In this document: positions 1-41,162 of the stretch, piece after piece
Layout of the letters: each line of letters starts with the position of its first letter
How positions within the stretch are numbered: position 1 is the first letter of the stretch
Origin: Armatimonadota bacterium
GTDB lineage: Bacteria; Armatimonadota; DTGP01; JAKQQT01
Assembly (NCBI GenBank): GCA_036504855.1
Contig: DASXUL010000039.1
Location: forward strand, 15,582-79,581
Direction of reading: 5' to 3'
DNA length: 64,000 nt
The notes under the pieces: model-generated
What the model saw: only the letters and a program-made list of their open reading frames with translations
Told to the model about the DNA's origin: nothing
Database searches by the model: none
Position numbers and translations under genes: made by a program

Positions 1-1677
1 ACCGCCAACACGGAGTTCGTGGAGCTGTACAATCGAACCAGCGCGGAGATCGATCTGGCCGGCTACCGGCTCGTGTACCGCTCGGCGGCCGGGACGACCG
101 ACACCACGCTCTGCACGTTCGGCCCGGTCTCCATCCGTGCGGGGCGCACCTACCTGGTTGCCACCGCCGATTACTCCGGGCCAAAAGACGCGGGGATGAC
201 GGCGGGGCTGGCCGGCGGCGGCGGCTCGGTGGCCCTGAAAGACGCCGGCGGGACGGTGCGCGATGCCGTGGGTTGGGGCGCCGTCGATAACGACTATGTA
301 GAGATCTCGCCGGCGCTGGCCCCGGCGGCCGGACAGAGCATCGAACGCACTCCGGACGGGCAGGACACGAATGTGAACGCGGCGGATTTCCGCCTGCGAG
401 CATCGCCAACGCCGGTTCCGGGGGCGGTGCAGCCCGTCGTCGCCGGCGTGGCGTTCAGCCCGGCCGCCGTCGATCCGGGCGGATCAACAACTCTGACGGC
501 CACGGTGACGCCCGGCGGTTCCGCCGTAGTCTCCGTCGTGGCCGATCTCACGGCCGTGGGCCTGGCATATGAGGAGCCGCTGACTCGCGGCGCGGGCGGC
601 GCGTGGATGAGGACTCTGAGCGTTTCCGCGCTGACCACGCCGGGGGCTAAGAACGTGTTGGTTACCGCCGCGGACGCGGACGGCCTGGAGGCGTCTCGGG
701 CCGGCGTCCTGAGCGTGAATGCGCCGCCCCCGCCGCCCGTGAAGGTGAACGAGGTGAAAACCGGCGGCGGCGCGTCCGCGGCGGACGAGTTCGTCGAGGT
801 CTACAACCCATCTCTGGAGGATGCCAATCTGAACGGATGGAGCCTCGTCTACCGCGCGGCAGCCAGCTCGGCCGAGACCGCGCTTGTCTCCTTCGGGGCT
901 GCGACGCTGAAGGCCGGGGGATATCTGGTGTTCGGAGGGACGGCGTTCGCGGGGGCGAAGGACGGGGCTTTGGCGGGCAGCCTCACATCGGAGGGCGGGG
1001 CCGTGGGGCTGCGCGATCCGTATGGACGCGTGGTGGATTCGGTGGGATATGGGACGGCGACGAACGCGTTAGTGGAGGGGAAGCCGGCGGCCGCCCCGGC
1101 GGTGGGCCAGAGCATAGAGCGGAACCCGGCCGGGCATGACTCCGGAGACAACTCCGCCGATTTCCGCGTCTGCGCGCAGCCCACGCCGATGCCTCTGACG
1201 GCGTGTCCGTGGGTGTCCGGAGTGACCTTCGCGCCGAACCCCGCAGCGGCGGGTGGGGCCGCCACGGTGAGCGCGTTGGCCTCGCCGGGCTCGGCGGACA
1301 TCGCGGCTGTCGAGGCGGACCTGTCATCCCTGGGGCTCTCATCCGCCGTGCCGATGGCGAAGGCGGGGGCATTGTGGAGCGCCTCGTTCACGGCGCCGGC
1401 GGGAGCGGCAACCGGGAGCCATACAGCCAGTGTGAAGGCGACGGATGCGGCGGGACACTGGGCGTGCGCGTGGGGGGTACTGAGCATTGCGAACGGCACG
1501 GCGAAGGGCGATGCGAACGGAGATGGCAGAATTGACGCGGCGGACGCCGTTCTGGCTTTGCAGTTGGCGGGCGGGCTGGCCTCGCGGGGCGGTGCGGACG
1601 TGTCGGGTGACGGGCGCGCGAGCGTGGAAGATGCGTTGCGGATCCTGCGCGCGGCCCGTAACGGGTCGCCGCTTTGA
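1..1677 (+). CDS. Secreted lamin-tail-domain (LTD) protein with C-terminal dockerin-like Ca-binding repeats; 5' end truncated by the window edge
   Basis: The frame is open from nt 1 (TANTEFVELYN...). Two LTD signatures are present (EFVELYN...DLAGYRL and EFVEVYNPSLEDANLNGWSL). The C-terminus carries two dockerin-type repeats (DANGDGRIDAADAVLALQLAGG and ADVSGDGRASVEDALRILRAA). Confidence 0.75.
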   Translation, partial: TANTEFVELYNRTSAEIDLAGYRLVYRSAAGTTDTTLCTFGPVSIRAGRTYLVATADYSGPKDAGMTAGLAGGGGSVALKDAGGTVRDAVGWGAVDNDYVEISPALAPAAGQSIERTPDGQDTNVNAADFRLRASPTPVPGAVQPVVAGVAFSPAAVDPGGSTTLTATVTPGGSAVVSVVADLTAVGLAYEEPLTRGAGGAWMRTLSVSALTTPGAKNVLVTAADADGLEASRAGVLSVNAPPPPPVKVNEVKTGGGASAADEFVEVYNPSLEDANLNGWSLVYRAAASSAETALVSFGAATLKAGGYLVFGGTAFAGAKDGALAGSLTSEGGAVGLRDPYGRVVDSVGYGTATNALVEGKPAAAPAVGQSIERNPAGHDSGDNSADFRVCAQPTPMPLTACPWVSGVTFAPNPAAAGGAATVSALASPGSADIAAVEADLSSLGLSSAVPMAKAGALWSASFTAPAGAATGSHTASVKATDAAGHWACAWGVLSIANGTAKGDANGDGRIDAADAVLALQLAGGLASRGGADVSGDGRASVEDALRILRAARNGSPL

Positions 1678-8183: not shown

Positions 8184-10037
8184 TCAGCCCAGCCCATTGG
8201 CGACCCTGGCTATCGCCGCTGCATCCCGAACGGTGATGAGTCCGTCATAGTCGAGATCACCAAGGGTGAGGATGTCGGCGGAGTCTGGGGTCAGGCCGCC
8301 CGCAACCCGCAACACGGCGGCGATGTCCTGCGCGTCCACTTTGCCATCCCGGTTCACGTCTCCGGCCGCGGCGCCGATGACCAGCGGCCCCAACGCGCTT
8401 CTCAGCCCCGTGAAGTTCGCGCTGCCGATCCCGGTGACGTAGTCCCAGCCGCTCGTGCATGAGAACAACCCATTGTTCCCCACCGTGACGTCATGGAAGG
8501 GCGCTCCGCCTTTCACCTTGCTGAAGACCTGGTAGAGCAACGGGCTGAGGAAGAAGGGCTTCCCGAGCGACTGCTGGATCAGGAGCAGGCCAGCCGCCCA
8601 TTCCGGCGCGGCGGCGCTGGTGCCGCCCCCGTAGAACCAGGCGGTGGTCGTGTTGACGGTGAGGTAGACAACGTAACCGGTGCTGGGGCTGGCATCCATC
8701 GAGACGTCTGGAAGCTGGCGCTTTCCATTGCTCGATCCGTTCTGCACGCCGGGGCCGGTTTGCCACGCCGGTCGTGGGAAGTAAAGGCTGAGCCCTCCTC
8801 CGCTGCCGGTGATCTTTCCGCTTACCGTGCCGCCCCAGCCGGTCTCGTGATCGTATGCGTCACCGGTTGCGGCGAAGAGGTTGGTTCCGCCGACGGCAAC
8901 GACGTAGGGGTCCGATGCCGGATGCGAAACCGCCACCGTGCCGTCCTGCGCTTCGTTGGATCCATTGTCGCCGCTGGAGTTGAAGATGGTGAGCCCTTCC
9001 GCGGCGGCTTGCTGGAAGACCTGGTGGTACGCGTCGAAATCGGCGGGCGCGAGTTGGTCTTCCCCGATGCCCCAACTGCTCGTCATGATCTTCACGTCGG
9101 TCTGGTTGGCGAATCGGTCGTAGATATCGAACACGGCGTTGCTCGAATTCGCGCCCAGCCACACCTGAATCTGCGCGCCCGGCGCCGAACCCAGCGTCAA
9201 CTCGGCGTCGAGGTCGGCCTCCTCGCTGTGTTGGGTCGTGCCGCCGTCCACGGCAACCCGCGTGACGTTGGCGGCGTTGAGGGCAGCGGAGGATGGAGGG
9301 AAGGCGAACTGGTTCACATGGGCGGCGTAGTTGGTGAGGTTGCTGGACGAGTAGTCCGCCAGGGAGTAGATGGCGATTTTCTGACCGGTCCCATCGACGC
9401 CGGCGTTGCGAAGGCCCTGGTAGTTGTAGAGCCTGTTGATGGCAGTCGGGGTAAACGGCGGCGTGCCGTTGTCTCGGGGTTGATACACCAGGGCGTTGGT
9501 GAGGCCCTGCACGGAGACCAGTCCGTTCGCGCTCACGCCGGCCGGAATGGCCGGGGTCCGATCATTGGCGAAGACCTCCCGCCCTCGCAGCCTGTAGCGG
9601 TTGAGGTGGACGCTGAACGCCTGCTCCAACTGCGCGGCGGCGCCTGTGGCGGTGATGCTGGAGCGGGCTGCGGACGTGCGGGTAACCTTGAGGCCGGAGA
9701 TGACGAGGTAGTTCAGCACGGAGGCGTACTCCGCGGGCGACGGGCCGAACCGCGCGCCGAATTCCCGAGGCGTCAGATAACGGAGGAACTGCGGTGACGA
9801 GGGATCGCCTTGCTCGGCAATGAGCCGGTCCACGGCGTCTGGATTCCGCAGAGGGAGGACAACCGTAACAGATAGAGGGGTTTCGGCCGCGAGGCGGCCA
9901 ATGGGAGCTTGCCCGGCCAACTGGGGCGGCGCCTGGGTGTGGGCTGGCTTCAAACTGATCTCGGCGGCGAATCCGCGCGCGGCGAGGTTCGCGAGGGCGG
10001 CGAGCCACGCCAGGCGGCGATGGTAACCGATGCTCAC
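8184..10037 (-). CDS. S53 (sedolisin/kumamolisin-type) serine peptidase with a pro-domain and two C-terminal dockerin-like repeats
   Basis: A GTG start at 10037 is preceded by AAGGAGG (reverse complement of 10049-10055) and begins the signal peptide VSIGYHRRLAWLAALANLAARGFAA. A pro-kumamolisin activation region is followed by an S8/S53 catalytic region (SGDNGS, GGTSAAAPEWAG). The C-terminus has DVNRDGKVDAQDIAAVLRVAGGL and DLDYDGLITVRDAAAIARVANG. Confidence 0.85.
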   Translation of the reverse strand: MSIGYHRRLAWLAALANLAARGFAAEISLKPAHTQAPPQLAGQAPIGRLAAETPLSVTVVLPLRNPDAVDRLIAEQGDPSSPQFLRYLTPREFGARFGPSPAEYASVLNYLVISGLKVTRTSAARSSITATGAAAQLEQAFSVHLNRYRLRGREVFANDRTPAIPAGVSANGLVSVQGLTNALVYQPRDNGTPPFTPTAINRLYNYQGLRNAGVDGTGQKIAIYSLADYSSSNLTNYAAHVNQFAFPPSSAALNAANVTRVAVDGGTTQHSEEADLDAELTLGSAPGAQIQVWLGANSSNAVFDIYDRFANQTDVKIMTSSWGIGEDQLAPADFDAYHQVFQQAAAEGLTIFNSSGDNGSNEAQDGTVAVSHPASDPYVVAVGGTNLFAATGDAYDHETGWGGTVSGKITGSGGGLSLYFPRPAWQTGPGVQNGSSNGKRQLPDVSMDASPSTGYVVYLTVNTTTAWFYGGGTSAAAPEWAAGLLLIQQSLGKPFFLSPLLYQVFSKVKGGAPFHDVTVGNNGLFSCTSGWDYVTGIGSANFTGLRSALGPLVIGAAAGDVNRDGKVDAQDIAAVLRVAGGLTPDSADILTLGDLDYDGLITVRDAAAIARVANGLG

Positions 10038-10121
10038 TTTCGGTCTTTCCTCCTTTATGTGATCGGAGCCGGCAGCCGCCGCTTGCCGCCTGCCGCGTGG
10101 GGCGGCGCTGAGACGCGGGAA

Positions 10122-10250
10122 ACCACAGAGACATAAGGGCGCAAAGGGCGGATGAAAGGGATCGATTGGGGGGAATGCCGGGCCCAACACGATCCACCTC
10201 CCCATCTATACCCCTTTCATCCGCCCTTTGCGCCCTTGTTTCTCTGTGGT
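10122..10250. repeat. Long inverted repeat with about 39-bp arms (36/39 identical) separated by a 50-nt loop. It lies upstream of the S53 peptidase gene
   Basis: accacagagacataagggcgcaaagggcggatgaaaggg (10122-10160) matches the reverse complement of cccctttcatccgccctttgcgcccttgtttctctgtggt (10211-10250). The right arm overlaps the last codons of ORF 10217..10669. Confidence 0.6.
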
Positions 10251-10669
10251 TGCTCCGCCAGGCCTTCCAGCCACCGGCGGAAGGCGTAACGCGCCGCCGG
10301 GCGAGCCAGGGCGGCGAGGCCGGGGATGGGAAATCGGGTCCAAACCTGCAGGCGCGCTTCGCACCCGCCGGATGGCGTTGGCGTTAGCAGCAGACGGCCG
10401 CGCTGCGCTACGCCTAACGAGGCGCTTACCGAAAGCCAGACGACCGCGGAGGGGCTCCACGCCTTGACGAAAGTCATGCGCAGCCCTAGAGGCAGGAACA
10501 CGCGATAGCGCACCCATCCGTCACCGCGCGCCAGCACATCCACGCGGCGGACGAATGGGATGAGTTCCGGCTCCAACTCTACGCGCGAGACCAGAGCCGC
10601 CGCCAAGGCGGGCGGCGCCGGATTGCGGGCGCTCACGCACAGGATGAGGCATTTCGATCGGTCAGCCAT
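10217..10669 (-). CDS. Hypothetical protein (150 aa), possibly SRPBCC-like
   Basis: It is the only sizeable ORF between the peptidase gene and the divergent downstream gene, with no recognisable catalytic motif. Its 3' end is embedded in the arm of the long inverted repeat. Confidence 0.35.
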   Translation of the reverse strand: MADRSKCLILCVSARNPAPPALAAALVSRVELEPELIPFVRRVDVLARGDGWVRYRVFLPLGLRMTFVKAWSPSAVVWLSVSASLGVAQRGRLLLTPTPSGGCEARLQVWTRFPIPGLAALARPAARYAFRRWLEGLAEQPQRNKGAKGG

Positions 10670-10786
10670 CAGTCTACAGCCATTGGCAGGGGCGGGCGGA
10701 GTTCGGCCGTCCGCCCGATGACGGAAAACCGGTAACTCAAGGCGGAATTTGCGTTTGATGGGCCCGGCGGGCGTGGGATAAACTCC

Positions 10787-11044
10787 ATGTTACGCATGAA
10801 CGCGGGCACGCGCCCATGCGGGGAGGGTTATCCGATGAAGCCCGCATTGTACGGCTGGAAGGACATGCTGCATGACTACACGCAGCTCCTTCTGAACGAC
10901 CGCTGGTATTGGTGCCGCCACTGCCGTCGTCCCGTTGAACACGTGCAGATCCCGCCTCCGGGCAGCCCCCCGGACGCGACCTCCCTAACGTGCCTCGATT
11001 GCGGCTACGCCGACCCGGAATTCCTGCACCTCCCTCGGATGTAA
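10787..11044 (+). CDS. Small zinc-ribbon protein (CxxC...CxxC), hypothetical
   Basis: An 85-aa ORF containing CRHCRRP ... CLDCGY. A start at the internal MKPALYGW is also possible. Confidence 0.4.
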   Translation: MLRMNAGTRPCGEGYPMKPALYGWKDMLHDYTQLLLNDRWYWCRHCRRPVEHVQIPPPGSPPDATSLTCLDCGYADPEFLHLPRM

Positions 11045-11163
11045 GCTGTCAGCCGTCAGCTGTCAGCCGTCAGCCCAGAGGGTCCGCCTGTGCAGACGCC
11101 GCGCTCTCTTGGGTCAGCCTTCCGGCTGATGACTGATGACTGAAGGCTGACGACTGACTACTG
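11045..11163. repeat. Intergenic palindromic element C, a compound of 7-mer arrays (GCTGTCA/GCCGTCA) plus a D/E-like unit
   Basis: gctgtcagccgtcagctgtcagccgtcagcc ... ggtcagccttccggctgatgactgatgactgaaggctgacgactgactac, located immediately after the stop codon of the preceding gene. Confidence 0.65.
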
Positions 11164-11237
11164 CCTCAGTGCTCTGTTCGGGTGGTTCTGTGAGTTGGTC
11201 GCGTCCGTAGGAAGCACCTTCTGTGTGTGAAAGGCTG

Positions 11238-11335
11238 GCGGGCAGGGCAAGCCCAGCCCCTACCAGGTCGGGGTCTCCATCCACCCATCGGTGGACGGCC
11301 GGGCCTACCGGGTCGGGGCTGGGCTTGCCCTGCCC
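11238..11335 (-). terminator. Large GC-rich hairpin (perfect 21-bp stem, 54-nt loop with an inner palindrome) downstream of the pilin operon
   Basis: gggcagggcaagcccagcccc (11240-11260) pairs with ggggctgggcttgccctgccc (11315-11335), and the loop contains tccacccatcggtgga. It lies 59 nt beyond the 3' end of the PilX-like gene. Confidence 0.5.
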
Positions 11336-11393
11336 TCGGAGCCTCAGATTGGCCCTCGCGCCCCGCAGTAACAGATCCTACCGAACGCGGCGC

Positions 11394-12713
11394 TCAGTTC
11401 TGCTCCCAGCTCTGAAGCTTGTAAGTGGTCACGCCGCCGCCGCCGCCGGCAACGGCCACGTTGGCGAGCTGTTCATCGTAGTGGATCATGCTGTTCCCGT
11501 TGATGACAATGGCGTTTCCCACCACCGCGCCGTACATATTGCTGGAGGCGGTGAGGTTGATCGTGGCGCTGGGCGCGTAAAGCACGCCTACGAAGTCGTT
11601 GTAGCCGCTCCAGTTAACCGTCTTGCAGCTTGGTAAGCCGTAGATCTGGACCTTGGCCGGCTGGTAGGGGTTGGAGGCGTCGATGGTGGTGAAGGATGCT
11701 CCGATGTTGACGGAGCCGGAGACGATGATCCTCAGGCTGCCGTTGACCTTGACCGCCGTGTTGCCGCCGGTGGTCACGTCGCCGGTGACGTTCAGCGTTA
11801 CATCGCCGTTGATGTTGATGACGTTCTGATCGCTGCTCAGGTTGATGCCGGTGAGGTTGTACGTGCCGGTGGGGATGTTCCAGGTATAGTTGTTGCGAAC
11901 GGGATCGTGGTTGCGCGCCGGGTCCAGAACGTTGCCGGAGTTTCCGCCGGTGACCGGGACAGTGGAGAACGGCACGCCGTTGGTGGGGGCTGTGACATCC
12001 GGCAGCGTGGTGGCCTTGCTGGCGACGGCGAATCCGTTTGTGGGATAGGCCCAGTTGGCTGCCCAGGCCGCCTTCATAGCGGCCGCGCTGTTCCCGGGGC
12101 CGCCCATGGCGATGCCCTTTATGTCCGGCCCGCCGGTTGCGGTGATCGCGTTGGCCGCGCTGGAGTTCGTACCGAGGCCGCCGTTCGTCTTCGTCCTGCC
12201 CGAATTGTAGGGGCCCAACGCGGAGTCGTAGGAATTTGTGTGCGGAGAGCCCGACAGGGCGATGGTGGTTTTGGCGAATCCGGCCATGGCGAACACGCCC
12301 GACACGCCGCCGCCCGAGTTCGTTCCGGCGACCTTCACGGTGATCTTCACCGGGTCCGATGGGGCGCTTTTTGCCGTGCCGGTGGAACTGATGGTCAGCG
12401 TGTGGTCAGACGTGTTTTCAGCGACGTCCACGGTGTACGAGCCCAGCGTGACGCTGGCTCCGTCTACCGTGCCGGTGACGTTGCCGGTTACCCTGGCGGG
12501 CTTGGCCTGGTGGTTCCACTGGTTCAGGGCCAGCTCCGCGCCGGCCTCCGCCACGTTGCGGGCCACCACGGTCGAGGCCTGGTTGTTCGATGCTCTGAAC
12601 TCCGTGGTGGTCAGGCCGAGGAGGGCCAGTCCAAGGGCCAGCACCACGAAGGTGAAGCCGATAGCGGCAATCAGGGCCATGCCACGCTGGCGTTCCGTTC
12701 GCTGTCTCGTCAT
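11394..12713 (-). CDS. PilX-like pilus assembly / minor-pilin-associated protein (large, Gly/Thr/Asn-rich)
   Basis: The start was chosen at ATG 12713 because AAGGAG lies 6 nt upstream (MTRQRTERQRGMALIAAIGFTFVVLALGLALL). It has an N-terminal hydrophobic anchor followed by a long low-complexity beta-rich region, and it is the last gene of the pilin operon. Confidence 0.6.
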   Translation of the reverse strand: MTRQRTERQRGMALIAAIGFTFVVLALGLALLGLTTTEFRASNNQASTVVARNVAEAGAELALNQWNHQAKPARVTGNVTGTVDGASVTLGSYTVDVAENTSDHTLTISSTGTAKSAPSDPVKITVKVAGTNSGGGVSGVFAMAGFAKTTIALSGSPHTNSYDSALGPYNSGRTKTNGGLGTNSSAANAITATGGPDIKGIAMGGPGNSAAAMKAAWAANWAYPTNGFAVASKATTLPDVTAPTNGVPFSTVPVTGGNSGNVLDPARNHDPVRNNYTWNIPTGTYNLTGINLSSDQNVININGDVTLNVTGDVTTGGNTAVKVNGSLRIIVSGSVNIGASFTTIDASNPYQPAKVQIYGLPSCKTVNWSGYNDFVGVLYAPSATINLTASSNMYGAVVGNAIVINGNSMIHYDEQLANVAVAGGGGGVTTYKLQSWEQN

Positions 12714-12766
12714 CTGCGTCTCCTTCGCGCCCACAATACCGGGAATCATAAAGGCCGCGCCCGCGG

Positions 12767-13375
12767 CTAGGAACTGGGAAGCCGTTTGTTGCGCATCCGT
12801 ACGCTGGTGAGCGCCAGCGTGAACGGCTGCGAATCCAACGTGCTGGCGACCTTGCAGGAGATGTCTACAATCGCGGCATCGCTAACGGCCGTGGCTTGCG
12901 AGCCGTCCTTCGTCCACATCTTGTACGCGAAGGCCGTGACCCCCTGGGCCACTGTGACCGTGTAGGGGTTTGTGGCGCCCTTGCGCTTGCTGGCCGAATT
13001 GCCGACGCTGGTGGTGCGATGGAGCACTCCGTCGCTTGAGTGCCAGTAGGTGATGGTGTCCTTGTACATCGTCGTGCCGTTGTAGACGATGCCGGCGTTG
13101 GGGCTCTGACACGGAACCTCCAAAGTGAAGGCGCCGTCGTTTGCCGGCAGAGTGGGGTTGGCGACCACCGCGTCGGCGAGCCGGATATCCATGGCGATGG
13201 CGTCTAGCGCCGTGCGCACGCGGAACTGTGTGAACGCTTGCCCCTGTTCGCGGGCGAACGTCCGCGTGCCCGTTATGGCGATGCTCATCACGATCATCAG
13301 CACCATGCTCCCAATCGCCATGGCGCAGAGCAGCTCAATATAGGTCAGGCCCCGGATGCGGGTATGGCGGTTCAT
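12767..13375 (-). CDS. PilW-like minor pilin (prepilin-type N-terminal cleavage/methylation domain)
   Basis: A start at 13375 gives MNRHTRIRG|LTYIELLCAMAIGSMVLMIV, the class-III signal motif. The gene overlaps the upstream gene by 4 nt. Confidence 0.65.
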   Translation of the reverse strand: MNRHTRIRGLTYIELLCAMAIGSMVLMIVMSIAITGTRTFAREQGQAFTQFRVRTALDAIAMDIRLADAVVANPTLPANDGAFTLEVPCQSPNAGIVYNGTTMYKDTITYWHSSDGVLHRTTSVGNSASKRKGATNPYTVTVAQGVTAFAYKMWTKDGSQATAVSDAAIVDISCKVASTLDSQPFTLALTSVRMRNKRLPSS

Positions 13376-13812
13376 TGGGGGTCGATGCCTCCCTTGCCGA
13401 TCACCGTGGCCACGGCCACGGATCGATTGGCCCCGCCGCGGTCCTTCCATTTGACGACGACGGTTACATCCTTCAACTCGCCGTTGGCATCGCCGGGGTG
13501 CCCTCCCACCGTAACGACGCCGGTCGCCCCTGGCAGGCTGGTTCCGCCGGAGCCGAGACCATTGGGGTCGAATGTCGCGCTGGCGATGCTGGCGAACGCC
13601 GTGTTGCGCACCATTTCGATCTTCTGCTGGGCCGCCAGGTGGGCGGCCATCACGAGCTTGGAGTCCGCGTTCATCGATGTTCCCTGCGCGGTCAGGTAGA
13701 ATGCCGACAGGAGGCCGATGCTGGCCACCAGGGTTGCGATGATCACCTCGATGAGGGTGAAGCCTCGTCGAGCCCGATGTCTGCGCTCAGCGGCGCGGGT
13801 GATGACGGTCAT
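13372..13812 (-). CDS. PilV/GspI-like minor pilin
   Basis: ARRG|FTLIEVIIATLVASIGLL is a prepilin cleavage/methylation motif. AGGAGG lies 7 nt upstream of the ATG. Confidence 0.7.
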   Translation of the reverse strand: MTVITRAAERRHRARRGFTLIEVIIATLVASIGLLSAFYLTAQGTSMNADSKLVMAAHLAAQQKIEMVRNTAFASIASATFDPNGLGSGGTSLPGATGVVTVGGHPGDANGELKDVTVVVKWKDRGGANRSVAVATVIGKGGIDPQ

Positions 13813-13843
13813 ATGCAGCCTCCTGGGTCTCGGGAAAAGCGAT

Positions 13844-14308
13844 CTATTGGATGCAGGGGTCCGACGGGCCCGCCGGCGTGTTGTCGTCGCGCACGTGGAT
13901 GGCGCCGATCTCGTTGACGTAGAAGGAGCGCAGCCCAGTGGTCCCGACCTGCACGGGCACGGCCACTACATGCCAGACGTTTACGTCGCCGCCGCCAGAG
14001 AAGACGTAACCGGACCGCTCTCCCTGAGCGAGGTTGGGATCGATTTCCGGCGGGATCTGACTGGCGAGGTCCTTGAAGTTGGCCGGGTAACCCGCCGGAT
14101 GGCGGATGCGCCAGCCCTCCATCCCCTTGGCGATGATGCGCAGCGAACTGATAGCGCTGGCCTCATTCGCGGATATGCGGGTGCGGATGATGTTGGGCGC
14201 CGCGATGCTGGCAAGGATGGTGATCACCGCGCAGACGATGAGCAACTCCACCAAGGAGAAGCCCCGGGCCGCGTGGTGACGAATGGGCCGTTGAGCACGG
14301 AATTTCAT
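13844..14308 (-). CDS. Major pilin / GspG-PulG-like pseudopilin (155 aa)
   Basis: An internal ATG at 14308 is preceded by GAGGGA. The protein begins MKFRAQRPIRHHAARG|FSLVELLIVCAVITILASIAAPNIIRTRISANEASAISSLRII, the canonical type IV pilin / T2SS pseudopilin N-terminus. The upstream 60 aa of the ORF were rejected. Confidence 0.75.
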   Translation of the reverse strand: MKFRAQRPIRHHAARGFSLVELLIVCAVITILASIAAPNIIRTRISANEASAISSLRIIAKGMEGWRIRHPAGYPANFKDLASQIPPEIDPNLAQGERSGYVFSGGGDVNVWHVVAVPVQVGTTGLRSFYVNEIGAIHVRDDNTPAGPSDPCIQ

Positions 14309-14465
14309 GGCAATTTCCCTCGTGTGCCCCCGAGATGAGGGCATCCGAGGGGTTATGCCACGGTTCAACTCTCTGCCTGCCCGGCATGAAGTACGAAATC
14401 GGATGAGCCTATGGGAGTGGCCTTTCCGTAGCCGCCGCCATAGGCGCATCGTGCCCGGTCTGCTG

Positions 14466-16544
14466 TCAGCGCCAGGCGTCCAATTCACGGGAGTCCGGAT
14501 AGTCGGCCGCGGCCCGCGTGAGAAGGTAGCGCGCTTTGCCGGGTTCGTGCTGGTTGGTAAAGATCGCCGCCAGCCGGAACCAGGGGGCGGGGTCTACCGG
14601 CTTGCAGGCGATGGCCACCTGTAGCGCCAGCTTCTCCTCCAGATCGTGCCCGTTCGCGCGTTGGGCTCGGGCGATGGCCCACCAGCACGCGGCGGAGTTG
14701 GGCGAAAGCCTGGCGGCCCGTTTGGCTTCGGCAACGGCTTCCGACGGCGCCGTGTAGCAGAGCGCGATGGCCCGGCCCGCGTGCCAGATGCCATTGCCCG
14801 GCTCCCTGGCGATGTTCGCGGCGTAGGCCTGCTCCGCGTCCACGGCGGCCGTGGCCGCGGCGATGCCGTTCTCGGAGGCGGCGGCCTTCAGCGCGCATTT
14901 GGCCAGATCCGCGCGGTAGCTCGGCTCCATGGGGTCCACGGCGGCGGCCGCGCGATACCACGCCAGCGCCCGCGGCAGTTGGCCGGCGGCCTGGCGCGCG
15001 TCGCCGATCCCGGAGAAGGCGTCGGCGCTGAGCAAGCCAAGGAAGCAGACCGCTGCGACGGCTCCGAACGCGATGGCGCTGACGCGCATGGCCTGCCCGT
15101 GGGCGCCCGCCCGGCGGATACCGATGGACACTGGTTCCGCGGACGCGGCCAGGCCCCAGAGCAAGGCAAGTCCAAGGGTCGTTACCGGCGAGCGAGGGGT
15201 GAGGCACCCCTGGAGGGCAAAAGCCACAAGTCCGCCAAAGACTCCGGCCGCCAGCGCCGCCCGCTCGAGGCGAAGGGAGGGTGGGAGGGCATTGGGCGAC
15301 GGCTTGTCGCGGCCGCTGTCGGCCCGGGCGCGATCCGCGGCGACGCTGAGGAGCGATAGGATGAAGGTCACCCAGGCGATCAGGCCGAGGGCGCCGCCGT
15401 CTACCGCCGCCGTATACCATTCGCTCTGCGCGTTGGCGTGCGGGTAGGCCGTTGAGTCCGGCGCGATAACGTGGTCGTTGGCCACCGTTGGGGCTCCCGC
15501 GCGAAACCCGTCCGGCCCCCATCCGAACCACAATCGCTTCTGCACCAGCGTGGTTGCGGCCTGCCAGAACTCCTGCCGATCGAGTCCGGCTTCCGTGACG
15601 TTCCACTGCGCGTTGACCGCGGGCGGCGACGGGGCCTGGCCGGACCGGTGGAGGCTGGCGGCGGCCAGCACTGCCGCGATGGCAGCTCCGGCGGCCAGCA
15701 TCCTGCGCGCTCGATGGTAATTCGGGACGGTAAGGACCCATGCGATGATGCCGGCCGCGGCAATCGCCCCCAGCGGCTTCACCAGGGTCGGCGCGAAATG
15801 GTATGCCGCCGGAAAGAGGATAACGCCCTGAAGAGCCGCCAACGTCATCCAAGACGCTCCAGCCTTTCCGGCCTTTGGCGTGGCCGCGTAGAGCGCCACC
15901 AGGACGCCGGCTGCGGCCGCCGCCCACATAGCGGGCGATCCGGTGAGCGCTAGGGCGGCTACGATGACTGCGGCCGCGGCGGCAAGCCATTTCGGGCAGC
16001 GCCGGGTTCGCGACAGCGCCACCGCCAGCGGCAGCGCCACGGCAAGGAAAGCGCCTTGGGCAATGGGGGTTGCGCCGGCCCGCCCGAAGGGGTTCAGCCC
16101 CTGGCGCTGCGCCAGCGCATAGACGGAGCAGATTCCGGCGGAAGCCACCCATGCCGCCATGATGCGACGCCGCGCTGCGGGCTTTCGGGCCGCCTCCCCG
16201 ATGGAGAGGGCCAGGACGATCGGCGGAGCCAGGCTCATGGCGCCCCAAACGCCCAGCGGCTTCGCGAATGCCGCGGCCACGCTGATCAGCACGGCGACCA
16301 GCCAAAAAGCAGCCGGTCGCGCCAGCCGCGCGGGGATGGCCATGCGCCCCGGGCGGGCAGCCCACAGGGCGGCCAGGAACCACCCGGCGAGCGCCGCGAA
16401 CCCCCACATCGCCGCTTCGGTAACCCGCCCCGAGCGGGAGAGGGTGAAGGGGTTGACGGCGAGCGGGGCGAGGAAAACGGCGCCGGCCGTTACCCGTTCC
16501 AGCGCGCGCCGGGCGCTATGAGCCGCCTTGCGTTGCACATCCAT
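14466..16544 (-). CDS. O-antigen ligase (Wzy_C) family polytopic membrane protein with a C-terminal TPR domain; candidate pilin O-oligosaccharyltransferase (PglL/PilO-like)
   Basis: The start was chosen at ATG 16544 because AGGGAGG lies 9 nt upstream. The protein has more than 10 transmembrane helices and the periplasmic loop RLWFGWGPDGF typical of Wzy_C. The C-terminus has TPR-like repeats (ALAWYRAAAAVDP..., LALQVAIACKP...). It sits directly upstream of, and on the same strand as, the pilin genes. Confidence 0.65.
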   Translation of the reverse strand: MDVQRKAAHSARRALERVTAGAVFLAPLAVNPFTLSRSGRVTEAAMWGFAALAGWFLAALWAARPGRMAIPARLARPAAFWLVAVLISVAAAFAKPLGVWGAMSLAPPIVLALSIGEAARKPAARRRIMAAWVASAGICSVYALAQRQGLNPFGRAGATPIAQGAFLAVALPLAVALSRTRRCPKWLAAAAAVIVAALALTGSPAMWAAAAAGVLVALYAATPKAGKAGASWMTLAALQGVILFPAAYHFAPTLVKPLGAIAAAGIIAWVLTVPNYHRARRMLAAGAAIAAVLAAASLHRSGQAPSPPAVNAQWNVTEAGLDRQEFWQAATTLVQKRLWFGWGPDGFRAGAPTVANDHVIAPDSTAYPHANAQSEWYTAAVDGGALGLIAWVTFILSLLSVAADRARADSGRDKPSPNALPPSLRLERAALAAGVFGGLVAFALQGCLTPRSPVTTLGLALLWGLAASAEPVSIGIRRAGAHGQAMRVSAIAFGAVAAVCFLGLLSADAFSGIGDARQAAGQLPRALAWYRAAAAVDPMEPSYRADLAKCALKAAASENGIAAATAAVDAEQAYAANIAREPGNGIWHAGRAIALCYTAPSEAVAEAKRAARLSPNSAACWWAIARAQRANGHDLEEKLALQVAIACKPVDPAPWFRLAAIFTNQHEPGKARYLLTRAAADYPDSRELDAWR

Positions 16545-16646
16545 CGAAATTGGGCCTCCCTTGCGGCCCATCGCGGGCCTCATCCGTGTATCGTCAAGCG
16601 AACGGCGATAACTGAAGGTCAGTCCGGTCGCAAGGGATTGGCGCAG

Positions 16647-17822
16647 CTAGGCGTAGCGCCCGAAATGCTGGATAGCGCTCATCACGAGGCGCATGCCGGT
16701 GAGGCGGGAACCGTCGTTGATGGAGCCGGCGGTGCAGAAGCGGAGCCCCCTGCGCTCTCGAGCCTGCTCGAAATCCCGCAGGAACTCGCGAACGATGTTC
16801 TCCTCCTCGTTGCGGCTGAACGTGAAGGGGGCGAGCTGCCCCTCTATGATGGCGTTGGGGCAGTGCGCGCGGATCTCCGACACGGTCAGCGTTGGCCCGA
16901 AGTTGACGCTCTTCAGATCCAGCCGTCCGAGCAGAGGAAGCAGGTGGCCCATTGCGGAGTCGGAATGCTGGCCGCGCTGGTGTTCGGGAAGAGGCGCGTA
17001 GACGTCCCACATGCCTTTCAAGATGGGGAAGCCGAAGAACTCATAGGTCTTCGCGTTCAGCAGGCAGCAGTTATCGTCCAGGAAATAGAACCCGCGCGGG
17101 CTCGTTTGCGGGGTGAACCCGGCCTCCTCGTCCAGCGTGCGCGCGATGTCCAGCATACCCCGCAAGATCGCGTCGCGGAATCGGGCGGCCAGTTCCGGGT
17201 TGTCCATGATGAGGAACAGAAGATTCTCAACCCCGAAGAGCGACATCGCGAAGGTGACGGGGCCGCGTTGCGCCCGGTAGAGCGGCGGCGGAACGCCCAG
17301 CGCCGATAGCCGCGCCTTCTCTTCGTCCCAATTCTCGGGCAGGATCGCCGCGCGTATGTTCCGCTCCTCCACGCGGTCCAGCAGCTCCTTCAGTTCGTCC
17401 TCCGTATGGACGTTCTGTTCCAGCCACCACGATTGGTCGCGCCAGAGGTTGCGCGCTTCGAAGACGTCCGCCAGCCCTTTCACGGCAGGCCAGCGGCGCG
17501 ATGGGTCGTCGGGCGCGTCGTTCAGCAGGCGTCGCCCCACGATGCGCTCGGCGCGGTCGTTATAGGCGCGGTTGAGGGAGAGGCGCCATTCGTCGTCGTG
17601 TTCATAGCGCCAGAAGTCCATGGGGATGCCCAGTTCGCTCCAGATCGCGTCGCGGGCCATCCAGATGCCCATGGCGACCTGTGGGATCCGCGGGCCGAAC
17701 GGGTCGGCGTTGGCGATATCCTGGTCCGCCCAGAATCGTTCGAGGTCCACGGGAGCGAGGCCGCCATTGCGGCGCGCCCCCTCAACAAGCCAGCGGGCCT
17801 GGCGTTCGTGCTCGGGTGTCAT
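16647..17822 (-). CDS. Uroporphyrinogen-decarboxylase (URO-D) family protein (MtaA/CmuA-like methyltransferase fold)
   Basis: A start at 17822 has GGAGG 10 nt upstream. The protein is about 390 aa with a URO-D-like TIM-barrel pattern (FxxxxxP...LLxxA, C-terminal NFGP...). It is a paralog of 23016..24074. Confidence 0.65.
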   Translation of the reverse strand: MTPEHERQARWLVEGARRNGGLAPVDLERFWADQDIANADPFGPRIPQVAMGIWMARDAIWSELGIPMDFWRYEHDDEWRLSLNRAYNDRAERIVGRRLLNDAPDDPSRRWPAVKGLADVFEARNLWRDQSWWLEQNVHTEDELKELLDRVEERNIRAAILPENWDEEKARLSALGVPPPLYRAQRGPVTFAMSLFGVENLLFLIMDNPELAARFRDAILRGMLDIARTLDEEAGFTPQTSPRGFYFLDDNCCLLNAKTYEFFGFPILKGMWDVYAPLPEHQRGQHSDSAMGHLLPLLGRLDLKSVNFGPTLTVSEIRAHCPNAIIEGQLAPFTFSRNEEENIVREFLRDFEQARERRGLRFCTAGSINDGSRLTGMRLVMSAIQHFGRYA

Positions 17823-17894
17823 CGGTAGTCTTCCTCCGCTAGACTGTGTACGTTGGAGGCAATCGGCGTTCAACTAACGGGCAGGGAGGCGTGC

Positions 17895-19064
17895 ATGGCG
17901 GCAATGGTCCAGACCGGGCTGGATGTGCTGGCGGCGAGCGGGTTCGAGCGGCTGCGAGGCCTCCGCGTGGCCCTCCTGTGTAATCAGGCCTCTATTGCCG
18001 GCGACTACCGGCACTCCATGGACTTGTTCGCGGACGCCCAGGCGCGCGGCGTTCTCACGGTAGCGGCTGTTTTTGGGCCTCAACACGGCCTGTGGGGTCA
18101 CACGCAGGACAATATGATCGAGTGGGATGGCTTCCGCGACCCCCGCACCAGTTTCCTCGTGCACTCGCTGTACGGAGTGTACCGCCAACCCACTCCCGAG
18201 ATGCTCAAGGGCGTGGAAGCGTTCGTTGTGGATCTCCCGGATGTGGGCGCGCGCCTCTATACGTTCCTCTGGACGATGACGCTCTGCCTCGATGCCTGCG
18301 CCGCCGCCGGCATCCCGGTGATCGTGCTGGACAGGCCGAACCCGCTCTCCGGAGCCCGCGTGGAAGGCCCCGTGCTGAACCCGGAGTTCCAGAGTTTCAT
18401 TGGCCGTCACCCCGTGCCAATACGGCATGGGATGACCATGGCCGAGATGGCGCGCATGTGGAACCCCAGCGTCGAGGCGGTGTGCATGGAGGGCTGGCGC
18501 CGCGGCCAGTACTTCGACGATACGGGGCTCCCATGGGCGCCGCCCTCGCCCAACATGCCGAGCCTGGACACCGCAATCGTCTATCCGGGGCTGTGCCTGA
18601 TTGAAGGCACGAACCTCAGCGAGGGGCGCGGCACGACCCGCCCGTTCGAGACGTTTGGGGCGCCGTTCGTGGATGGTTGGGCACTGTGCGAAGCTCTGAA
18701 TGCGCTCCGCCTCCCTGGCGCCCACTTCCGCCCGACCGTTTTCGAGCCGACCTTCGACAAACACGCCGGTGCCCTGTGCGGCGGGGCATTCCTGCACGTG
18801 ACCGACCGACAAGCCTTCGAACCGGTGTTGACGGGCATCGCCGTGTTGCAGGAAGTGCGACGCGTTGCCGGAGGCGCCTTCTGGTGGAAACCGCCGCCCT
18901 TTGAGTACGAGGCGGAGAAGATGCCCATCGACATCCTGGCCGGCAATTCATGGGTGCGCCGCGCGGTGGATGAGGCCTGGCCGCTATCGAGCATCCGCGA
19001 TCGCCTGCGAACCGAGGCCGCGGCCTTCGCGCCGCAGCGCGAGGCGGCGCTGCTCTACGACTGA
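17895..19064 (+). CDS. namZ: DUF1343 family protein (exo-beta-N-acetylmuramidase NamZ-like)
   Basis: A start at 17895 is preceded by AGGGAGG. Conserved blocks of the YkuR/NamZ family are present: GLRVALLCNQASI, FGPQHGLWG, VVDLPDVGARLYTFLWTM, and AGIPVIVLDRPNPLSGARVEGP. Confidence 0.75.
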   Translation: MAAMVQTGLDVLAASGFERLRGLRVALLCNQASIAGDYRHSMDLFADAQARGVLTVAAVFGPQHGLWGHTQDNMIEWDGFRDPRTSFLVHSLYGVYRQPTPEMLKGVEAFVVDLPDVGARLYTFLWTMTLCLDACAAAGIPVIVLDRPNPLSGARVEGPVLNPEFQSFIGRHPVPIRHGMTMAEMARMWNPSVEAVCMEGWRRGQYFDDTGLPWAPPSPNMPSLDTAIVYPGLCLIEGTNLSEGRGTTRPFETFGAPFVDGWALCEALNALRLPGAHFRPTVFEPTFDKHAGALCGGAFLHVTDRQAFEPVLTGIAVLQEVRRVAGGAFWWKPPPFEYEAEKMPIDILAGNSWVRRAVDEAWPLSSIRDRLRTEAAAFAPQREAALLYD

Positions 19065-39374: not shown

Positions 39375-41162
39375 TCACTTTCCGTTGAGCTGCACCGGGA
39401 TCCGAACGCCGGACAGTGATCCCTCATCAGACAGCAGCGGCCACAGATGTTTGGCCGCCAGGACATCGAGCATGTCGCGCGGTATGCCGTCCACGGTGAT
39501 GCGGCGGTCGATGAGGCGGATGCCGTGACTGTAGTCGACGTAGGTGTCTTTGTGGACGGTGGTGAGCGGCTGGATGGGCATGCCGTCGGGAAGACGCCAT
39601 CCGTAGATGGCCACGCGGCGCGGATTCTCCTTCAGGCGCCCGGTCAATACCACATCCTTCTTGATGCCGCACACCAGAGCGCCGAGCGGCTTTCCGGCCC
39701 GCTGGCCCTCGATGATGGCGTTGTGCTGGACGAACGTGGCCACGGCCTCGCGGTCCTGTGTGAGGGGTTTCGGCTCAAGGCGGACCTCGGCGCAGTTGTC
39801 CACGATGTCCACGATGCGACGGGTGGGTAGCGAGCATCCGAAGCCGGCGGCGATCCGCGCGGCGGTCATCGGCGTCATCGGCGCGCGCACCCAGTCCGTG
39901 TCCGTGCCCACCGCGAGGTAGTCCGGCGCCACGCTGAAGGTTGCCGTATGGCGGCGGCCGCGGTCATCCACGCAACTCGTCTCCAGCGTCTTGAACACTC
40001 GTAGGAAGGATGGGATATTGCCCCTCAGGATGGCGTCGCCGATCGCCTGCTCACGCTCCGCCGGCGGCATGGCTTCGATGCGCGCCATGAACGCGGTTCC
40101 GCCCTCCGCGTTCGCCGGCGCCGGAGGGATGGTGGAGAGGGCCAACGTTCCGATGGGGGCGTCGCGCTCGGCGGGTTGAATCCACTTGCCGTAAGCCCGG
40201 TCTCCCCGGTATGTGAAGCCCCTGTGGTAGGGCGTTCCGGCCGTCATGGTTTCCAGGAAGCCGTTGGTCTCCACGAGAACGGTATGCAGGATCTTGTTGT
40301 TCGGGTTCTGGTCCACCAGCAACCGGATGCGGCCGTCCAGTCCGGTTGTTGTCTCAATGTCTCCGGCGCGGGACGTCTGAAGGGGAGTATCCTGGGCAAA
40401 GCGGTTGCGCATCCGGATGGTGGCGCGGAATGTGCCGCCGGTGGGGCCAACCACGGGCTTCCCGTCCAACGTAATGGAACGGTCGTCGTAAGCGAGAACG
40501 ACGAGTTGGCGCGTGGGATCGGCCTTCAGCCATGCCAGCAGCTTGTCTCCGTGGAGGTCTTCATCCGCGTACGAGTAGTTGGCGTCCAGGAAAGCGATTC
40601 GCTCCACCCAGTCCGGGATGGCGTCGCCGCCATTGAGGAACCCGATGAGGAAGGAGCCGCCGCCGCTGTGCCCGGCGAGGGCGACCGTTCGGCGCGGCGA
40701 CGGGAACTTGGCCGCGGCCGCGGCCACGAGGGCGCGGATGCGGGCAGCGTTGTCCGGGTTCCGCGCGCGCCACGCGGGCCAGGACCGCTGATCGGCCTGA
40801 ACGGTAACCAGCGCGATGTTCCGCCCTTTCTCCACGCGGCGGAGCATCCGGGTCTGCGCGGCGATGTGCTGGATGTTGTAGTGCCAGTCCAGCCCGTCGC
40901 GCATTTCGCAGCCGAGAGTCTGCTCAATGGTGTTGCCGTTCGGGGTGGCGAAGAAGATGACGAGGGTGGGGCGAGTGGGGTCGTAGCCGGCATCCGCGTT
41001 GTAGAACACGCGGACGCCGTCGGGAGTGTGCTCCTGCAGGGTCTGCTCTCCCCAGTAGGGGCCCTGGCGAAAGCCCTCCAGCGGCGGCGCCGCGTACGCT
41101 GACGTAGCCGCCGCGGCGAGGATCGCGAGGCAGCCGAGGGACAGGATAGTGTTCATGGACAC
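39375..41162 (-). CDS. Secreted alpha/beta-hydrolase-fold serine hydrolase with a large C-terminal domain of unknown function
   Basis: The signal peptide is MNTILSLGCLAILAAAATSAYA. The nucleophile elbow is LAGHSGGGSF (GxSxG). The protein is 595 aa. Confidence 0.6.
   Translation of the reverse strand: MSMNTILSLGCLAILAAAATSAYAAPPLEGFRQGPYWGEQTLQEHTPDGVRVFYNADAGYDPTRPTLVIFFATPNGNTIEQTLGCEMRDGLDWHYNIQHIAAQTRMLRRVEKGRNIALVTVQADQRSWPAWRARNPDNAARIRALVAAAAAKFPSPRRTVALAGHSGGGSFLIGFLNGGDAIPDWVERIAFLDANYSYADEDLHGDKLLAWLKADPTRQLVVLAYDDRSITLDGKPVVGPTGGTFRATIRMRNRFAQDTPLQTSRAGDIETTTGLDGRIRLLVDQNPNNKILHTVLVETNGFLETMTAGTPYHRGFTYRGDRAYGKWIQPAERDAPIGTLALSTIPPAPANAEGGTAFMARIEAMPPAEREQAIGDAILRGNIPSFLRVFKTLETSCVDDRGRRHTATFSVAPDYLAVGTDTDWVRAPMTPMTAARIAAGFGCSLPTRRIVDIVDNCAEVRLEPKPLTQDREAVATFVQHNAIIEGQRAGKPLGALVCGIKKDVVLTGRLKENPRRVAIYGWRLPDGMPIQPLTTVHKDTYVDYSHGIRLIDRRITVDGIPRDMLDVLAAKHLWPLLSDEGSLSGVRIPVQLNGK

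What the first reader, a model, noticed from the sequence alone, without database searches (positions are those of the whole stretch)
11394..16544. A Wzy_C (O-antigen-ligase-like) plus TPR membrane protein immediately upstream of a four-gene pilin operon: candidate pilin O-glycosylation module
PglL/PilO/TfpO-type pilin O-oligosaccharyltransferases belong to the Wzy_C family and are typically encoded next to the pilin they modify. Here a 692-aa Wzy_C protein, with more than 10 transmembrane helices, the WFGWGPDGF loop and a C-terminal TPR domain, ends 157 bp upstream of the major pseudopilin gene. A PilV-like, a PilW-like and a large PilX-like gene follow on the same strand. The major pilin has Ser/Thr-rich surface segments. 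A dedicated glycosylated type IV pilus or pseudopilus is a reasonable hypothesis. The TPR extension is unusual for characterised PglL enzymes.
Basis: inference. Interest (0 to 1): 0.6.

Follow-up and report, generated by a model that had tools for sequence, protein, structure and literature searches.

The report
Pilin-linked O-antigen-ligase-like TPR membrane protein
An Armatimonadota genome carries, welded to its type IV pilin genes, a rare membrane protein built like an O-antigen ligase with a periplasmic TPR arm; it is probably a pilin-glycosylating enzyme, but this copy lacks two of the three residues such enzymes normally need.

Summary

The family is tiny: 9 members found, all 50% identical or less except one pair (72%). 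In all 8 loci with readable flanks the gene directly abuts pilin genes, downstream, upstream or both, while the outer flanks differ. A syntenic Armatimonadota locus lacks it, so it is an accessory pilin-locus gene, like tfpO, tfpM and tfpW. This supports a pilin-dedicated role, most likely O-glycosylation.

- This copy has Pro204 and Gln373 where WaaL, PglL, PglS and TfpM have an essential Arg and the catalytic His. Only R323 is kept. These residues were lost repeatedly in the family, while another His (H369) is invariant.
- There are no PglL_A or Wzy_C_2 motifs.
- The pilin is not Ser/Thr-rich (11.6%).
- TPR-bearing protein glycosylation enzymes already exist (WsfB, TfpW).
- The window holds no pilBCMNOQ and no glycan-synthesis or LPS genes.

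Verdict: partly supported. It is a new variant of a known kind, of moderate interest.

The parts
14466..16544 (-). Wzy_C/WaaL-fold + TPR membrane protein, 692 aa (identical to NCBI 'hypothetical protein VGM37_05155', Armatimonadota MAG)
15030..16544 (-). Membrane (WaaL-fold) domain, residues 1 to about 505: about 13 helices, one more than needed to end in the cytoplasm, so the C-terminal domain is placed in the periplasm
   Evidence: DSSP helices of the model and hydropathy. Arg/Lys-rich loops at 404-421 and 470-480 fit a cytoplasmic location; this is inferred from the positive-inside rule.
15504..15530 (-). WFGWGPDGF loop (residues 339-347); G341, G343 and D345 are invariant in the family
15933..15935 (-). 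Pro204, at the position of the essential Arg (EcWaaL R215 / NmPglL R224; 'TGSPAMW' versus the family's 'TYSRAAW')
   Evidence: Alignments. Essential residues are listed in PMC3643930.
15576..15578 (-). Arg323, equivalent of EcWaaL R288 / NmPglL R298 (retained)
   Evidence: hhalign pairs it with R288; MAFFT column
15426..15440 (-). PHANAQ segment: His369 (invariant and family-specific) and Gln373, at the position of the canonical catalytic His (EcWaaL H338 / NmPglL H349; family consensus PHQNAHSEW)
14469..15029 (-). C-terminal TPR domain (residues about 506-692), predicted to be periplasmic
   Evidence: Pfam TPR hits. PDB TPR matches. Nine helices with pLDDT about 90.
14309..14465 (-). 157-bp intergenic spacer between the Wzy_C-TPR gene and the pilin gene; no convincing promoter or terminator
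13844..14308 (-). Type IV major pilin (154 aa; RG|FSLVELL with E5; C-terminal tail ...TPAGPSDPCIQ)
   Evidence: N_methyl 29.5 bits. Best NCBIfam hit is typeIV_PilA_Myxo. It belongs to a large family whose members sit in pilSR...pilCB loci. AF2 model pLDDT 94.8 with a classic pilin alpha-beta fold.
13372..13812 (-). PilV/GspI-like minor pilin (146 aa; RG|FTLIEV)
   Evidence: N_methyl 31.1 bits; TIGR02523 PilV E 2.1e-9
12767..13375 (-). PilW/GspJ-like minor pilin (202 aa from ATG 13375; RG|LTYIELL). Its ATG overlaps the preceding stop codon (ATGA).
11394..12749 (-). PilX/GspK-like large minor pilin with a C-terminal DUF7305 domain (451 aa from the first ATG; the start is probably Met13 at 12713). 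It has a hydrophobic N-terminus but no Glu5.
   Evidence: DUF7305 78.2 bits. Homologues hold the same position in L001, L002, L005 and L008.

Best explanation
The 692-aa protein is an accessory component of a type IV pilin locus. It is an inner-membrane WaaL-fold (GT-C_B, Wzy_C) domain followed by one extra transmembrane helix, which places a nine-helix TPR domain in the periplasm.

The most likely mechanism, by analogy with TfpO, TfpM, PglS, PglL and WsfB, has three steps:
1. The membrane domain binds an undecaprenyl-pyrophosphate-linked glycan made elsewhere in the genome.
2. The TPR arm recruits the membrane-anchored pilin before it is assembled.
3. The glycan is transferred to a pilin hydroxyl residue. 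The only plausible sites in the tail are T144 and S149 of ...DNTPAGPSDPCIQ.

Shown here: the fold, the domain order, conserved linkage to pilins, the accessory (present/absent) behaviour, and the state of the signature residues.

Inferred: the topology, the donor, the acceptor and the chemistry.

This genome's copy has Pro and Gln in place of one pyrophosphate-binding Arg and the canonical catalytic His. If it is active, it must use a shifted active site. The family-invariant His369, four residues upstream, together with D345 and D357, is the obvious candidate.

For: 2. Conserved linkage. phmmer against 1.84 billion representatives finds only 6 clusters at E<1e-30. Every family locus with readable flanks has a pilin gene directly adjacent:
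- L001: Wzy_C, pilin, 191 aa, 315 aa, DUF7305.
- L002-L004: pilin, Wzy_C, pilin, minor pilins, DUF7305.
- L005, L006, L007, L008 and L019.
Genes outside the cluster differ from locus to locus.

3. Accessory behaviour. L012 is syntenic with L002 (Lnt, MraZ, pilin, PilV-like) but lacks the Wzy_C-TPR gene.

4. Precedents.
- All known pilin-specific O-oligosaccharyltransferases have a Wzy_C domain and sit next to their pilin (PMC9829042). 21 of 31 PglL homologues are next to pilins (PMC3643930).
- TfpW is a multi-TM glycosyltransferase with a periplasmic C-terminal TPR domain, encoded next to pilA.
- WsfB is a Wzy_C plus TPR protein O-oligosaccharyltransferase.
- In L015 the same pilin family sits beside a different TPR-bearing multi-TM protein with a DDx-like motif.

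5. Continued constraint. The periplasmic loop (G341, G343, D345, D357, P368, H369) is invariant, including in the members that lack the canonical His.
Against: - Pro204 replaces the Arg equivalent to EcWaaL R215 / NmPglL R224. Gln373 replaces the His equivalent to H338/H349. His-to-Ala changes inactivate TfpM (H286A) and PglS (H324A).
- These residues were lost several times within the family: His in P0001, P0004 and P0008; Arg in P0001, P0006 and P0008. This could mean that catalysis is not the conserved function.
- There are no PglL_A or Wzy_C_2 Pfam hits.
- The pilin is Ser/Thr-poor (11.6%) and ends in Gln.
- The Ala/Ser/Thr-rich C-terminal tail is a trait of the whole pilin family. It is also found in pilins with no Wzy_C neighbour, so it is not a specific sequon signal.
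- The loop around H369 is modelled with pLDDT below 50.
- No glycan-synthesis genes lie nearby.
- No experimental data exist for any family member.
Confidence: 0.45

Rival explanations
1. A non-catalytic, pilin-dedicated scaffold or chaperone. The WaaL-like membrane domain has become a pseudo-enzyme in this lineage. The protein then acts through its periplasmic TPR arm and conserved loop to bind, stabilise or deliver pilins or minor pilins to the assembly machine, in the way TPR proteins such as PilF/PilW/Tgl serve type IV pili.
For: Two of the three signature residues are missing here, and both positions were lost repeatedly and independently in the family. Full-length ORFs, the TPR domain and the linkage to pilins are nevertheless kept. 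TPR domains mediate protein-protein contacts, and the best structural TPR matches are peptide-binding TPRs and OGT.
Against: Six of nine members keep the canonical His and six of nine keep the Arg. The periplasmic catalytic-loop region is the most conserved part of the membrane domain, which fits a retained ligand-binding or catalytic site. The TPR domain shows no specific similarity to PilW/PilF: NCBIfam gives only weak LcrH and PrsT hits.
Confidence: 0.25
2. A polysaccharide enzyme that does not act on pilin. It would be an O-antigen ligase (WaaL) or a Wzy-type polymerase/ligase for LPS or exopolysaccharide, whose product is made or exported together with the pilus, as proposed for the pseudopilin-linked hormogonium polysaccharide (Hps) system.
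For: The closest solved structure is WaaL. The lineage is diderm with LPS transport genes (LptF/G in L002; an OMP beta-barrel gene in the window). Wzy_C plus TPR proteins are widespread and usually not next to pilins (L011, L017). TPR domains also serve polysaccharide export scaffolds (references cited). There is a weak HpsC hit for the PilW-like gene (27.6 bits against a cutoff of 200, N-terminal helix only).
Against: There are no LPS-core, O-antigen, Wzx/Wzz or glycosyltransferase genes in the 64 kb or in the related loci. The gene is strictly linked to pilins and absent from an otherwise syntenic pilin locus. The HpsC hit is far below its cutoff and covers only the generic pilin helix. The missing Arg and His residues count equally against WaaL activity.
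Confidence: 0.15
3. The adjacency is inherited gene order without functional coupling.
For: All members come from one narrow Armatimonadota-like clade, so the loci are not fully independent observations.
Against: Members are only 31-54% identical, apart from one pair at 72%. Genes flanking the cluster differ in every locus. The position relative to the major pilin varies (upstream, downstream, or between two pilins) yet the gene always abuts a pilin.
Confidence: 0.05

Closest known systems
TfpO (PilO), TfpM and PglS: pilin-specific O-oligosaccharyltransferases of Pseudomonas, Acinetobacter and Moraxellaceae
   Same: They are Wzy_C-domain inner-membrane proteins encoded directly next to the pilin they modify. 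They are accessory genes of the pilin locus (PMC9829042). In five related loci (L002, L006, L007, L008, L019) the gene is likewise immediately downstream of a major pilin.
   Different: This protein has a long TPR domain that the descriptions of TfpO and TfpM read here do not mention (no occurrence of 'TPR' in PMC9829042); that they are much shorter than 692 aa is from my own knowledge. Their pilins end in Ser or Thr, whereas this one ends in Gln. The canonical His (TfpM H286, PglS H324) is Gln here. In this window the gene lies upstream of the pilin. No sequence similarity was detectable beyond the Wzy_C core.
PglL (Neisseria and other Proteobacteria), a general O-oligosaccharyltransferase
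   Same: It belongs to the Wzy_C superfamily and is often next to pilin genes (21 of 31 homologues; PMC3643930). It is reported to have a C-terminal TPR motif (PMC2943079).
   Different: The PglL_A motif and the Pfam Wzy_C_2 domain were not detected; that Wzy_C_2 marks PglL-type enzymes is from my own knowledge. Of R224/R298/H349, only the R298 equivalent is kept.
TfpW (P. aeruginosa group IV pilin arabinosyltransferase)
   Same: It has nearly the same architecture and context: about 650 aa, 11 or more TM helices, a large periplasmic C-terminal TPR domain, and a position adjacent to pilA.
   Different: TfpW is an ArnT/Emb-like GT-C enzyme with a DDx motif. The protein here has a WaaL/Wzy_C fold. 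The resemblance is one of design, not homology of the catalytic domain.
WsfB (Paenibacillus alvei S-layer O-oligosaccharyltransferase)
   Same: It has a Wzy_C domain plus a C-terminal TPR motif in one polypeptide that glycosylates a surface-filament/array protein (PMC2943079).
   Different: Its target is an S-layer protein and it is encoded in a glycan biosynthesis cluster. Here the neighbours are pilins and no glycan genes are present.
WaaL O-antigen ligase (7TPG/7TPJ; E. coli WaaL)
   Different: There is no LPS gene context. A TPR domain and an extra TM helix are present. The R215 and H338 equivalents are replaced.

Membership tests
Wzy_C / WaaL-fold (GT-C_B) superfamily | Profile match to Pfam PF04932 above the gathering score | tested here: met
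   33.7 bits against a 31.7 cutoff, E 3.9e-08. The margin is narrow.
Wzy_C / WaaL-fold (GT-C_B) superfamily | WaaL-like polytopic fold | tested here: met
Active WaaL / PglL-type ligases | Arg equivalent to EcWaaL R215 / NmPglL R224 ('SR' motif) | tested here: not met
   Pro204 (TGSPAMW). Arg is present in 6 of 9 family members and in nearly all of the distant Wzy_C proteins aligned.
Active WaaL / PglL-type ligases | Arg equivalent to EcWaaL R288 / NmPglL R298 | tested here: met
   R323 is aligned to R288 by hhalign and MAFFT.
Active WaaL / PglL-type ligases | Catalytic His equivalent to EcWaaL H338 / NmPglL H349 / TfpM H286 / PglS H324 | tested here: not met
   Gln373 sits in the 'AHN' column. 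His is present in 6 of 9 family members. A different His (H369) is invariant.
PglL | PglL-specific flanking motifs (PglL_A; Pfam Wzy_C_2, the latter attributed to PglL-type enzymes from my own knowledge) | tested here: not met
   No such Pfam family appears at E <= 0.01. The original PglL_A and PglL_B HMMs of PMC3643930 were not available to run.
TfpO / TfpM | OTase gene immediately downstream of its pilin gene | tested here: not met
   In the window the gene is upstream of the pilin and follows an unrelated 408-aa ORF. The feature is met in the related loci L002, L006, L007, L008 and L019.
TfpO / TfpM | Cognate pilin ends in the acceptor Ser or Thr | tested here: not met
   The pilin ends ...PSDPCIQ. 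The nearest hydroxyl residue is S149, six residues from the end.
TfpW | ArnT/Emb-like GT-C domain with a DDx motif | tested here: not met
   The fold is WaaL-like. The periplasmic TPR domain and the pilA adjacency are shared.
WaaL (true O-antigen ligase) | Encoded with LPS core or O-antigen genes; acts on lipid A-core | tested here: not met
   No LPS genes occur in the 64-kb window or in the related loci. Activity is not testable here.
Protein O-oligosaccharyltransferase (any class) | Transfer of an Und-PP-linked glycan to the pilin, demonstrated | not testable with these tools
   This needs mass spectrometry or glyco-engineered E. coli assays.
Type IV pilins (class III signal peptide) | G(-1), hydrophobic +1, Glu+5 and an N-terminal hydrophobic helix | tested here: met
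   RG|FSLVE, RG|FTLIE and RG|LTYIE in three genes. The fourth (RG|MALIA) lacks E5, as PilX/GspK-type minor pilins do. The pilin model has pLDDT 94.8 with a long alpha1 helix and a four-strand sheet.

The most novel reading that the evidence does not exclude
The family may be a fifth, phylum-restricted class of pilin-dedicated O-oligosaccharyltransferase (Wzy_C plus periplasmic TPR). In it the catalytic base would have moved to a family-specific His (H369, in an invariant Pro-His motif). That would make the canonical His and one pyrophosphate-binding Arg dispensable, giving a re-wired active site within the WaaL/GT-C_B fold. The TPR arm would act as the pilin-recognition module.
Probability: 0.2. 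Interest if true: 0.6.

Novelty: new variant of a known kind. Interest (0 to 1): 0.4.

Why it matters
Pilin-linked Wzy_C enzymes such as TfpO, PglS and TfpM are the working tools of O-linked bioconjugate vaccine production. Their protein-recognition rules are poorly understood.

A WaaL-fold enzyme that carries its own TPR substrate-binding arm and sits in a pilin operon would be a natural model for how such enzymes pick their protein target.

If members lacking the canonical His are active, the accepted His-base mechanism for this fold would need revision. It would also be the first lead on surface-filament glycosylation in Armatimonadota.

If the copy is instead a pseudo-enzyme, it is an example of a glycosyltransferase scaffold recruited to pilus biogenesis.

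Tried and rejected
- **GTDB genome scan.** A scan of GTDB representative genomes with the family profile returned nothing. The JGI metagenome scan returned one extra locus. The word-index protein searches were swamped by Ala-rich words and added little. The family size therefore rests on the exhaustive phmmer run.
- **C-terminal tail as a sequon.** I tested whether the conserved pilin tail (S/T-D-P-I-Q) is specific to Wzy_C-linked pilins. It is not. The Ala/Ser/Thr-rich tail ending P-I-Q, A-L-Q or P-I-S is general to a family with thousands of members, including pilins with no Wzy_C neighbour.
- **A broader pilin-linked class.** I asked whether distant Wzy_C plus TPR proteins are also pilin-linked. 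They are not: L011 is a tandem pair next to amino-acid biosynthesis genes, and L017 is next to ParB-like genes.
- **PDB sequence search.** It saw only the TPR part. Fold comparison was needed to reach WaaL.
- **Promoter and terminator scan.** The scan of 10600-17000 gave nothing above the shuffled expectation, so co-transcription across the 157-bp gap is unresolved.
- **Hps-like and Verru_Chthon-cassette readings.** These were rejected as family assignments. All such hits are far below their cutoffs and cover only the generic N-terminal pilin helix.
- **WaaL structure paper.** The paper (Ashraf 2022) could not be read. Residue roles are taken from PMC3643930, PMC9829042 and PMC12800693.

Full report
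**What is in the sequence**

The window is 64-69% G+C. It matches an Armatimonadota metagenome-assembled genome: the protein encoded by 14466..16544 (minus strand) is 100% identical to NCBI 'MAG TPA: hypothetical protein VGM37_05155 [Armatimonadota bacterium]'.

Five co-oriented genes lie on the minus strand:
- A 692-aa membrane protein at 14466..16544. Its ATG is preceded by GGGAGG. The alternative in-frame ATG at 16583 is not supported by homologue N-termini.
- A 157-bp gap.
- A 154-aa pilin at 13844..14308, with the cleavage motif RG|FSLVELL.
- A 146-aa PilV-like pilin at 13372..13812.
- A PilW-like pilin at 12767..13375. Its ATG overlaps the preceding stop codon as ATGA.
- A 451-aa PilX/GspK-like protein at 11394..12749, with a C-terminal DUF7305 domain (78 bits).

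The pilin is not Ser/Thr-rich. It has 11.6% S+T, about half the average of its own family.

**The membrane protein**

Pfam Wzy_C is only just above its threshold (33.7 against 31.7 bits), and TPR profiles hit residues about 520-685. Sequence search of the PDB sees only the TPR part.

WaaL ends in the cytoplasm. Here one extra helix (residues 480-519) follows an Arg-rich loop, so the TPR domain should be periplasmic. This topology is inferred from the positive-inside rule and was not tested.

**Is the link to pilins real?**

An exhaustive phmmer search of 1.84 billion representative proteins found only six clusters at E<1e-30. Together with two further sequences from the word-index search and one metagenome locus, nine members are known. 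They are 31-54% identical to one another, except one pair at 72%.

Every locus with readable flanks has a pilin gene directly adjacent:
- L001: Wzy_C, pilin, 191 aa, 315 aa, DUF7305.
- L002-L004: pilin, Wzy_C, pilin, two minor pilins, DUF7305.
- L005: Wzy_C, PilV-like gene, then two DUF7305 genes.
- L006: pilin, Wzy_C.
- L007: pilin, Wzy_C, PilV-like gene.
- L008: pilin, Wzy_C, pilin, minor pilins, DUF7305.
- L019: pilin, Wzy_C.

Genes outside this block differ in each locus. L012 comes from the same sample as L003. It is syntenic with L002 (Lnt, MraZ, pilin, PilV-like gene) but has no Wzy_C-TPR gene. So the gene is a variably present accessory of the pilin locus. Distant Wzy_C plus TPR proteins are not pilin-linked.

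**What the pilins are**

The major pilin belongs to a very large family. The capped search returned 7,952 hits, named from Armatimonadota, Planctomycetota and Acidobacteriota.

In L015 three such pilins lie between pilS-pilR and pilC-pilB. This is therefore a type IV pilus major pilin, not a type II secretion pseudopilin. The AF2 model is a classic pilin (pLDDT 94.8).

The family shares an Ala/Ser/Thr-rich C-terminal tail that ends P-I-Q, A-L-Q or P-I-S. I first took the tail (S/T)-D-P-I-Q, shared by the Wzy_C-linked pilins, for a possible sequon. It also occurs in pilins with no Wzy_C neighbour, so it is not specific evidence.

The L015 pilins sit beside a different 662-aa multi-TM plus TPR protein with an N-terminal 'YDDE' (DDx-like) motif. 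That protein resembles TfpW in architecture.

**The catalytic residues**

Three residues are essential in E. coli WaaL (R215, R288, H338) and conserved in N. meningitidis PglL (R224, R298, H349) (PMC3643930). Mutating the His inactivates TfpM (H286A; PMC9829042) and PglS (H324A; PMC12800693).

I compared the family with E. coli WaaL in two ways: hhalign of the family profile, and a MAFFT alignment that also included 15 distant Wzy_C proteins. The mapping is:

| Essential residue (EcWaaL) | Position in the window protein | State |
|---|---|---|
| R288 | R323 | kept |
| R215 | Pro204 ('TGSPAMW' versus 'TYSRAAW') | lost |
| H338 | Gln373 ('PHANAQSEW' versus consensus 'PHQNAHSEW') | lost |

Within the family the His is also lost in P0004 (Gln) and P0008 (Gly). 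The Arg is also lost in P0006 (Ser) and P0008 (Pro). On the tree these are several independent events. L019 keeps both residues.

By contrast G341, G343, D345, D357, P368 and H369 in the periplasmic loop are invariant. H369 is family-specific: distant relatives mostly have Asp, Asn or Lys in that column. The loop that holds it is poorly modelled, with pLDDT below 50.

**Interpretation**

Conserved linkage, accessory behaviour and the precedents make a pilin-dedicated role the best reading. The precedents are TfpO, TfpM, PglS and PglL (Wzy_C enzymes next to pilins), TfpW (a multi-TM glycosyltransferase with a periplasmic TPR domain next to pilA) and WsfB (a Wzy_C plus TPR protein O-oligosaccharyltransferase). 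O-glycosylation of the pilin is the most likely activity of the family (confidence 0.45).

For this particular copy the canonical chemistry cannot operate as known. There are two possibilities:
- The active site has shifted to H369, D345 and D357. This is the novel reading (probability about 0.2).
- The protein is a pilin-binding pseudo-enzyme or scaffold (0.25).

A pilin-independent LPS or EPS role (0.15) is disfavoured, because no LPS or glycan genes occur in the window or in any related locus.

The window contains no pilBCMNOQ genes, so the assembly machinery must lie elsewhere.

**Verdict**

The system is a new variant of a known kind. It is a pilin-linked Wzy_C protein with a TPR arm and a non-canonical active site, confined to a small Armatimonadota clade. 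Interest is moderate (0.4), because nothing is demonstrated biochemically and the design has precedents.

Noticed in passing
L015:8088-10076 (minus strand), with pilins at L015:6045-8074: In a 1.17-Mb contig, three pilins of the same family lie between pilS-pilR and pilC-pilB. Next to them is a 662-aa protein with about 8 or more TM segments, an N-terminal 'FVYDDELQ' (GT-C DDx-like) motif and a C-terminal TPR domain. This is a TfpW/TMTC-like design. Two PAP2_3 membrane proteins also flank the pilins. It suggests that TPR-bearing membrane glycosyltransferases of different folds have repeatedly been recruited to this pilin family.
   Followed up: partly
L012:3730-10292 compared with L002:3448-13767: Two Armatimonadota loci from the same sample share Lnt, MraZ, pilin and a PilV-like gene, but only L002 carries the Wzy_C-TPR gene and a second pilin. 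L012 instead has a subtilase (S8) after the pilins. This is a presence/absence polymorphism of the accessory gene.
   Followed up: partly
window 59658-63635 (minus strand): Three tandem paralogous ORFs (424, 421 and 416 aa; 32-35% identical to one another) have an N-terminal signal/TM region, a conserved 'GPPP..R.RIA' segment and no Pfam match.
   Followed up: partly
window 8184-10205 (minus strand) and 19-1677 (plus strand): A sedolisin/kumamolisin-type peptidase (Pro-kuma_activ plus Peptidase_S8) and a Lamin-tail-domain protein both end in a type I dockerin domain, which is unusual outside cellulosome-producing Firmicutes.
   Followed up: no
window 16647-17873 (minus strand), 39375-41162 (minus strand), 50504-53023 (minus strand): Three sizeable ORFs (408, 595 and 839 aa) have good coding statistics but no Pfam family. 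The first lies directly upstream of the Wzy_C-TPR gene, also has no NCBIfam hit, and is not conserved in the related loci.
   Followed up: no
window 17853-19064 (plus strand): An exo-beta-N-acetylmuramidase NamZ homologue (peptidoglycan recycling) is encoded divergently, two genes upstream of the Wzy_C-TPR gene. It is not conserved next to the cluster in other loci.
   Followed up: no
L005:3933-6368 and L001/L002 third genes (L001:3673-4620, L002:11553-12512): The minor-pilin part of the cluster varies. L005 has two tandem DUF7305 genes. In L001, L002 and L008 the PilW-like gene is longer (306-328 aa), and in L001 and L002 it has a weak CarboxypepD_reg match that the window's 202-aa version lacks.
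   Followed up: no
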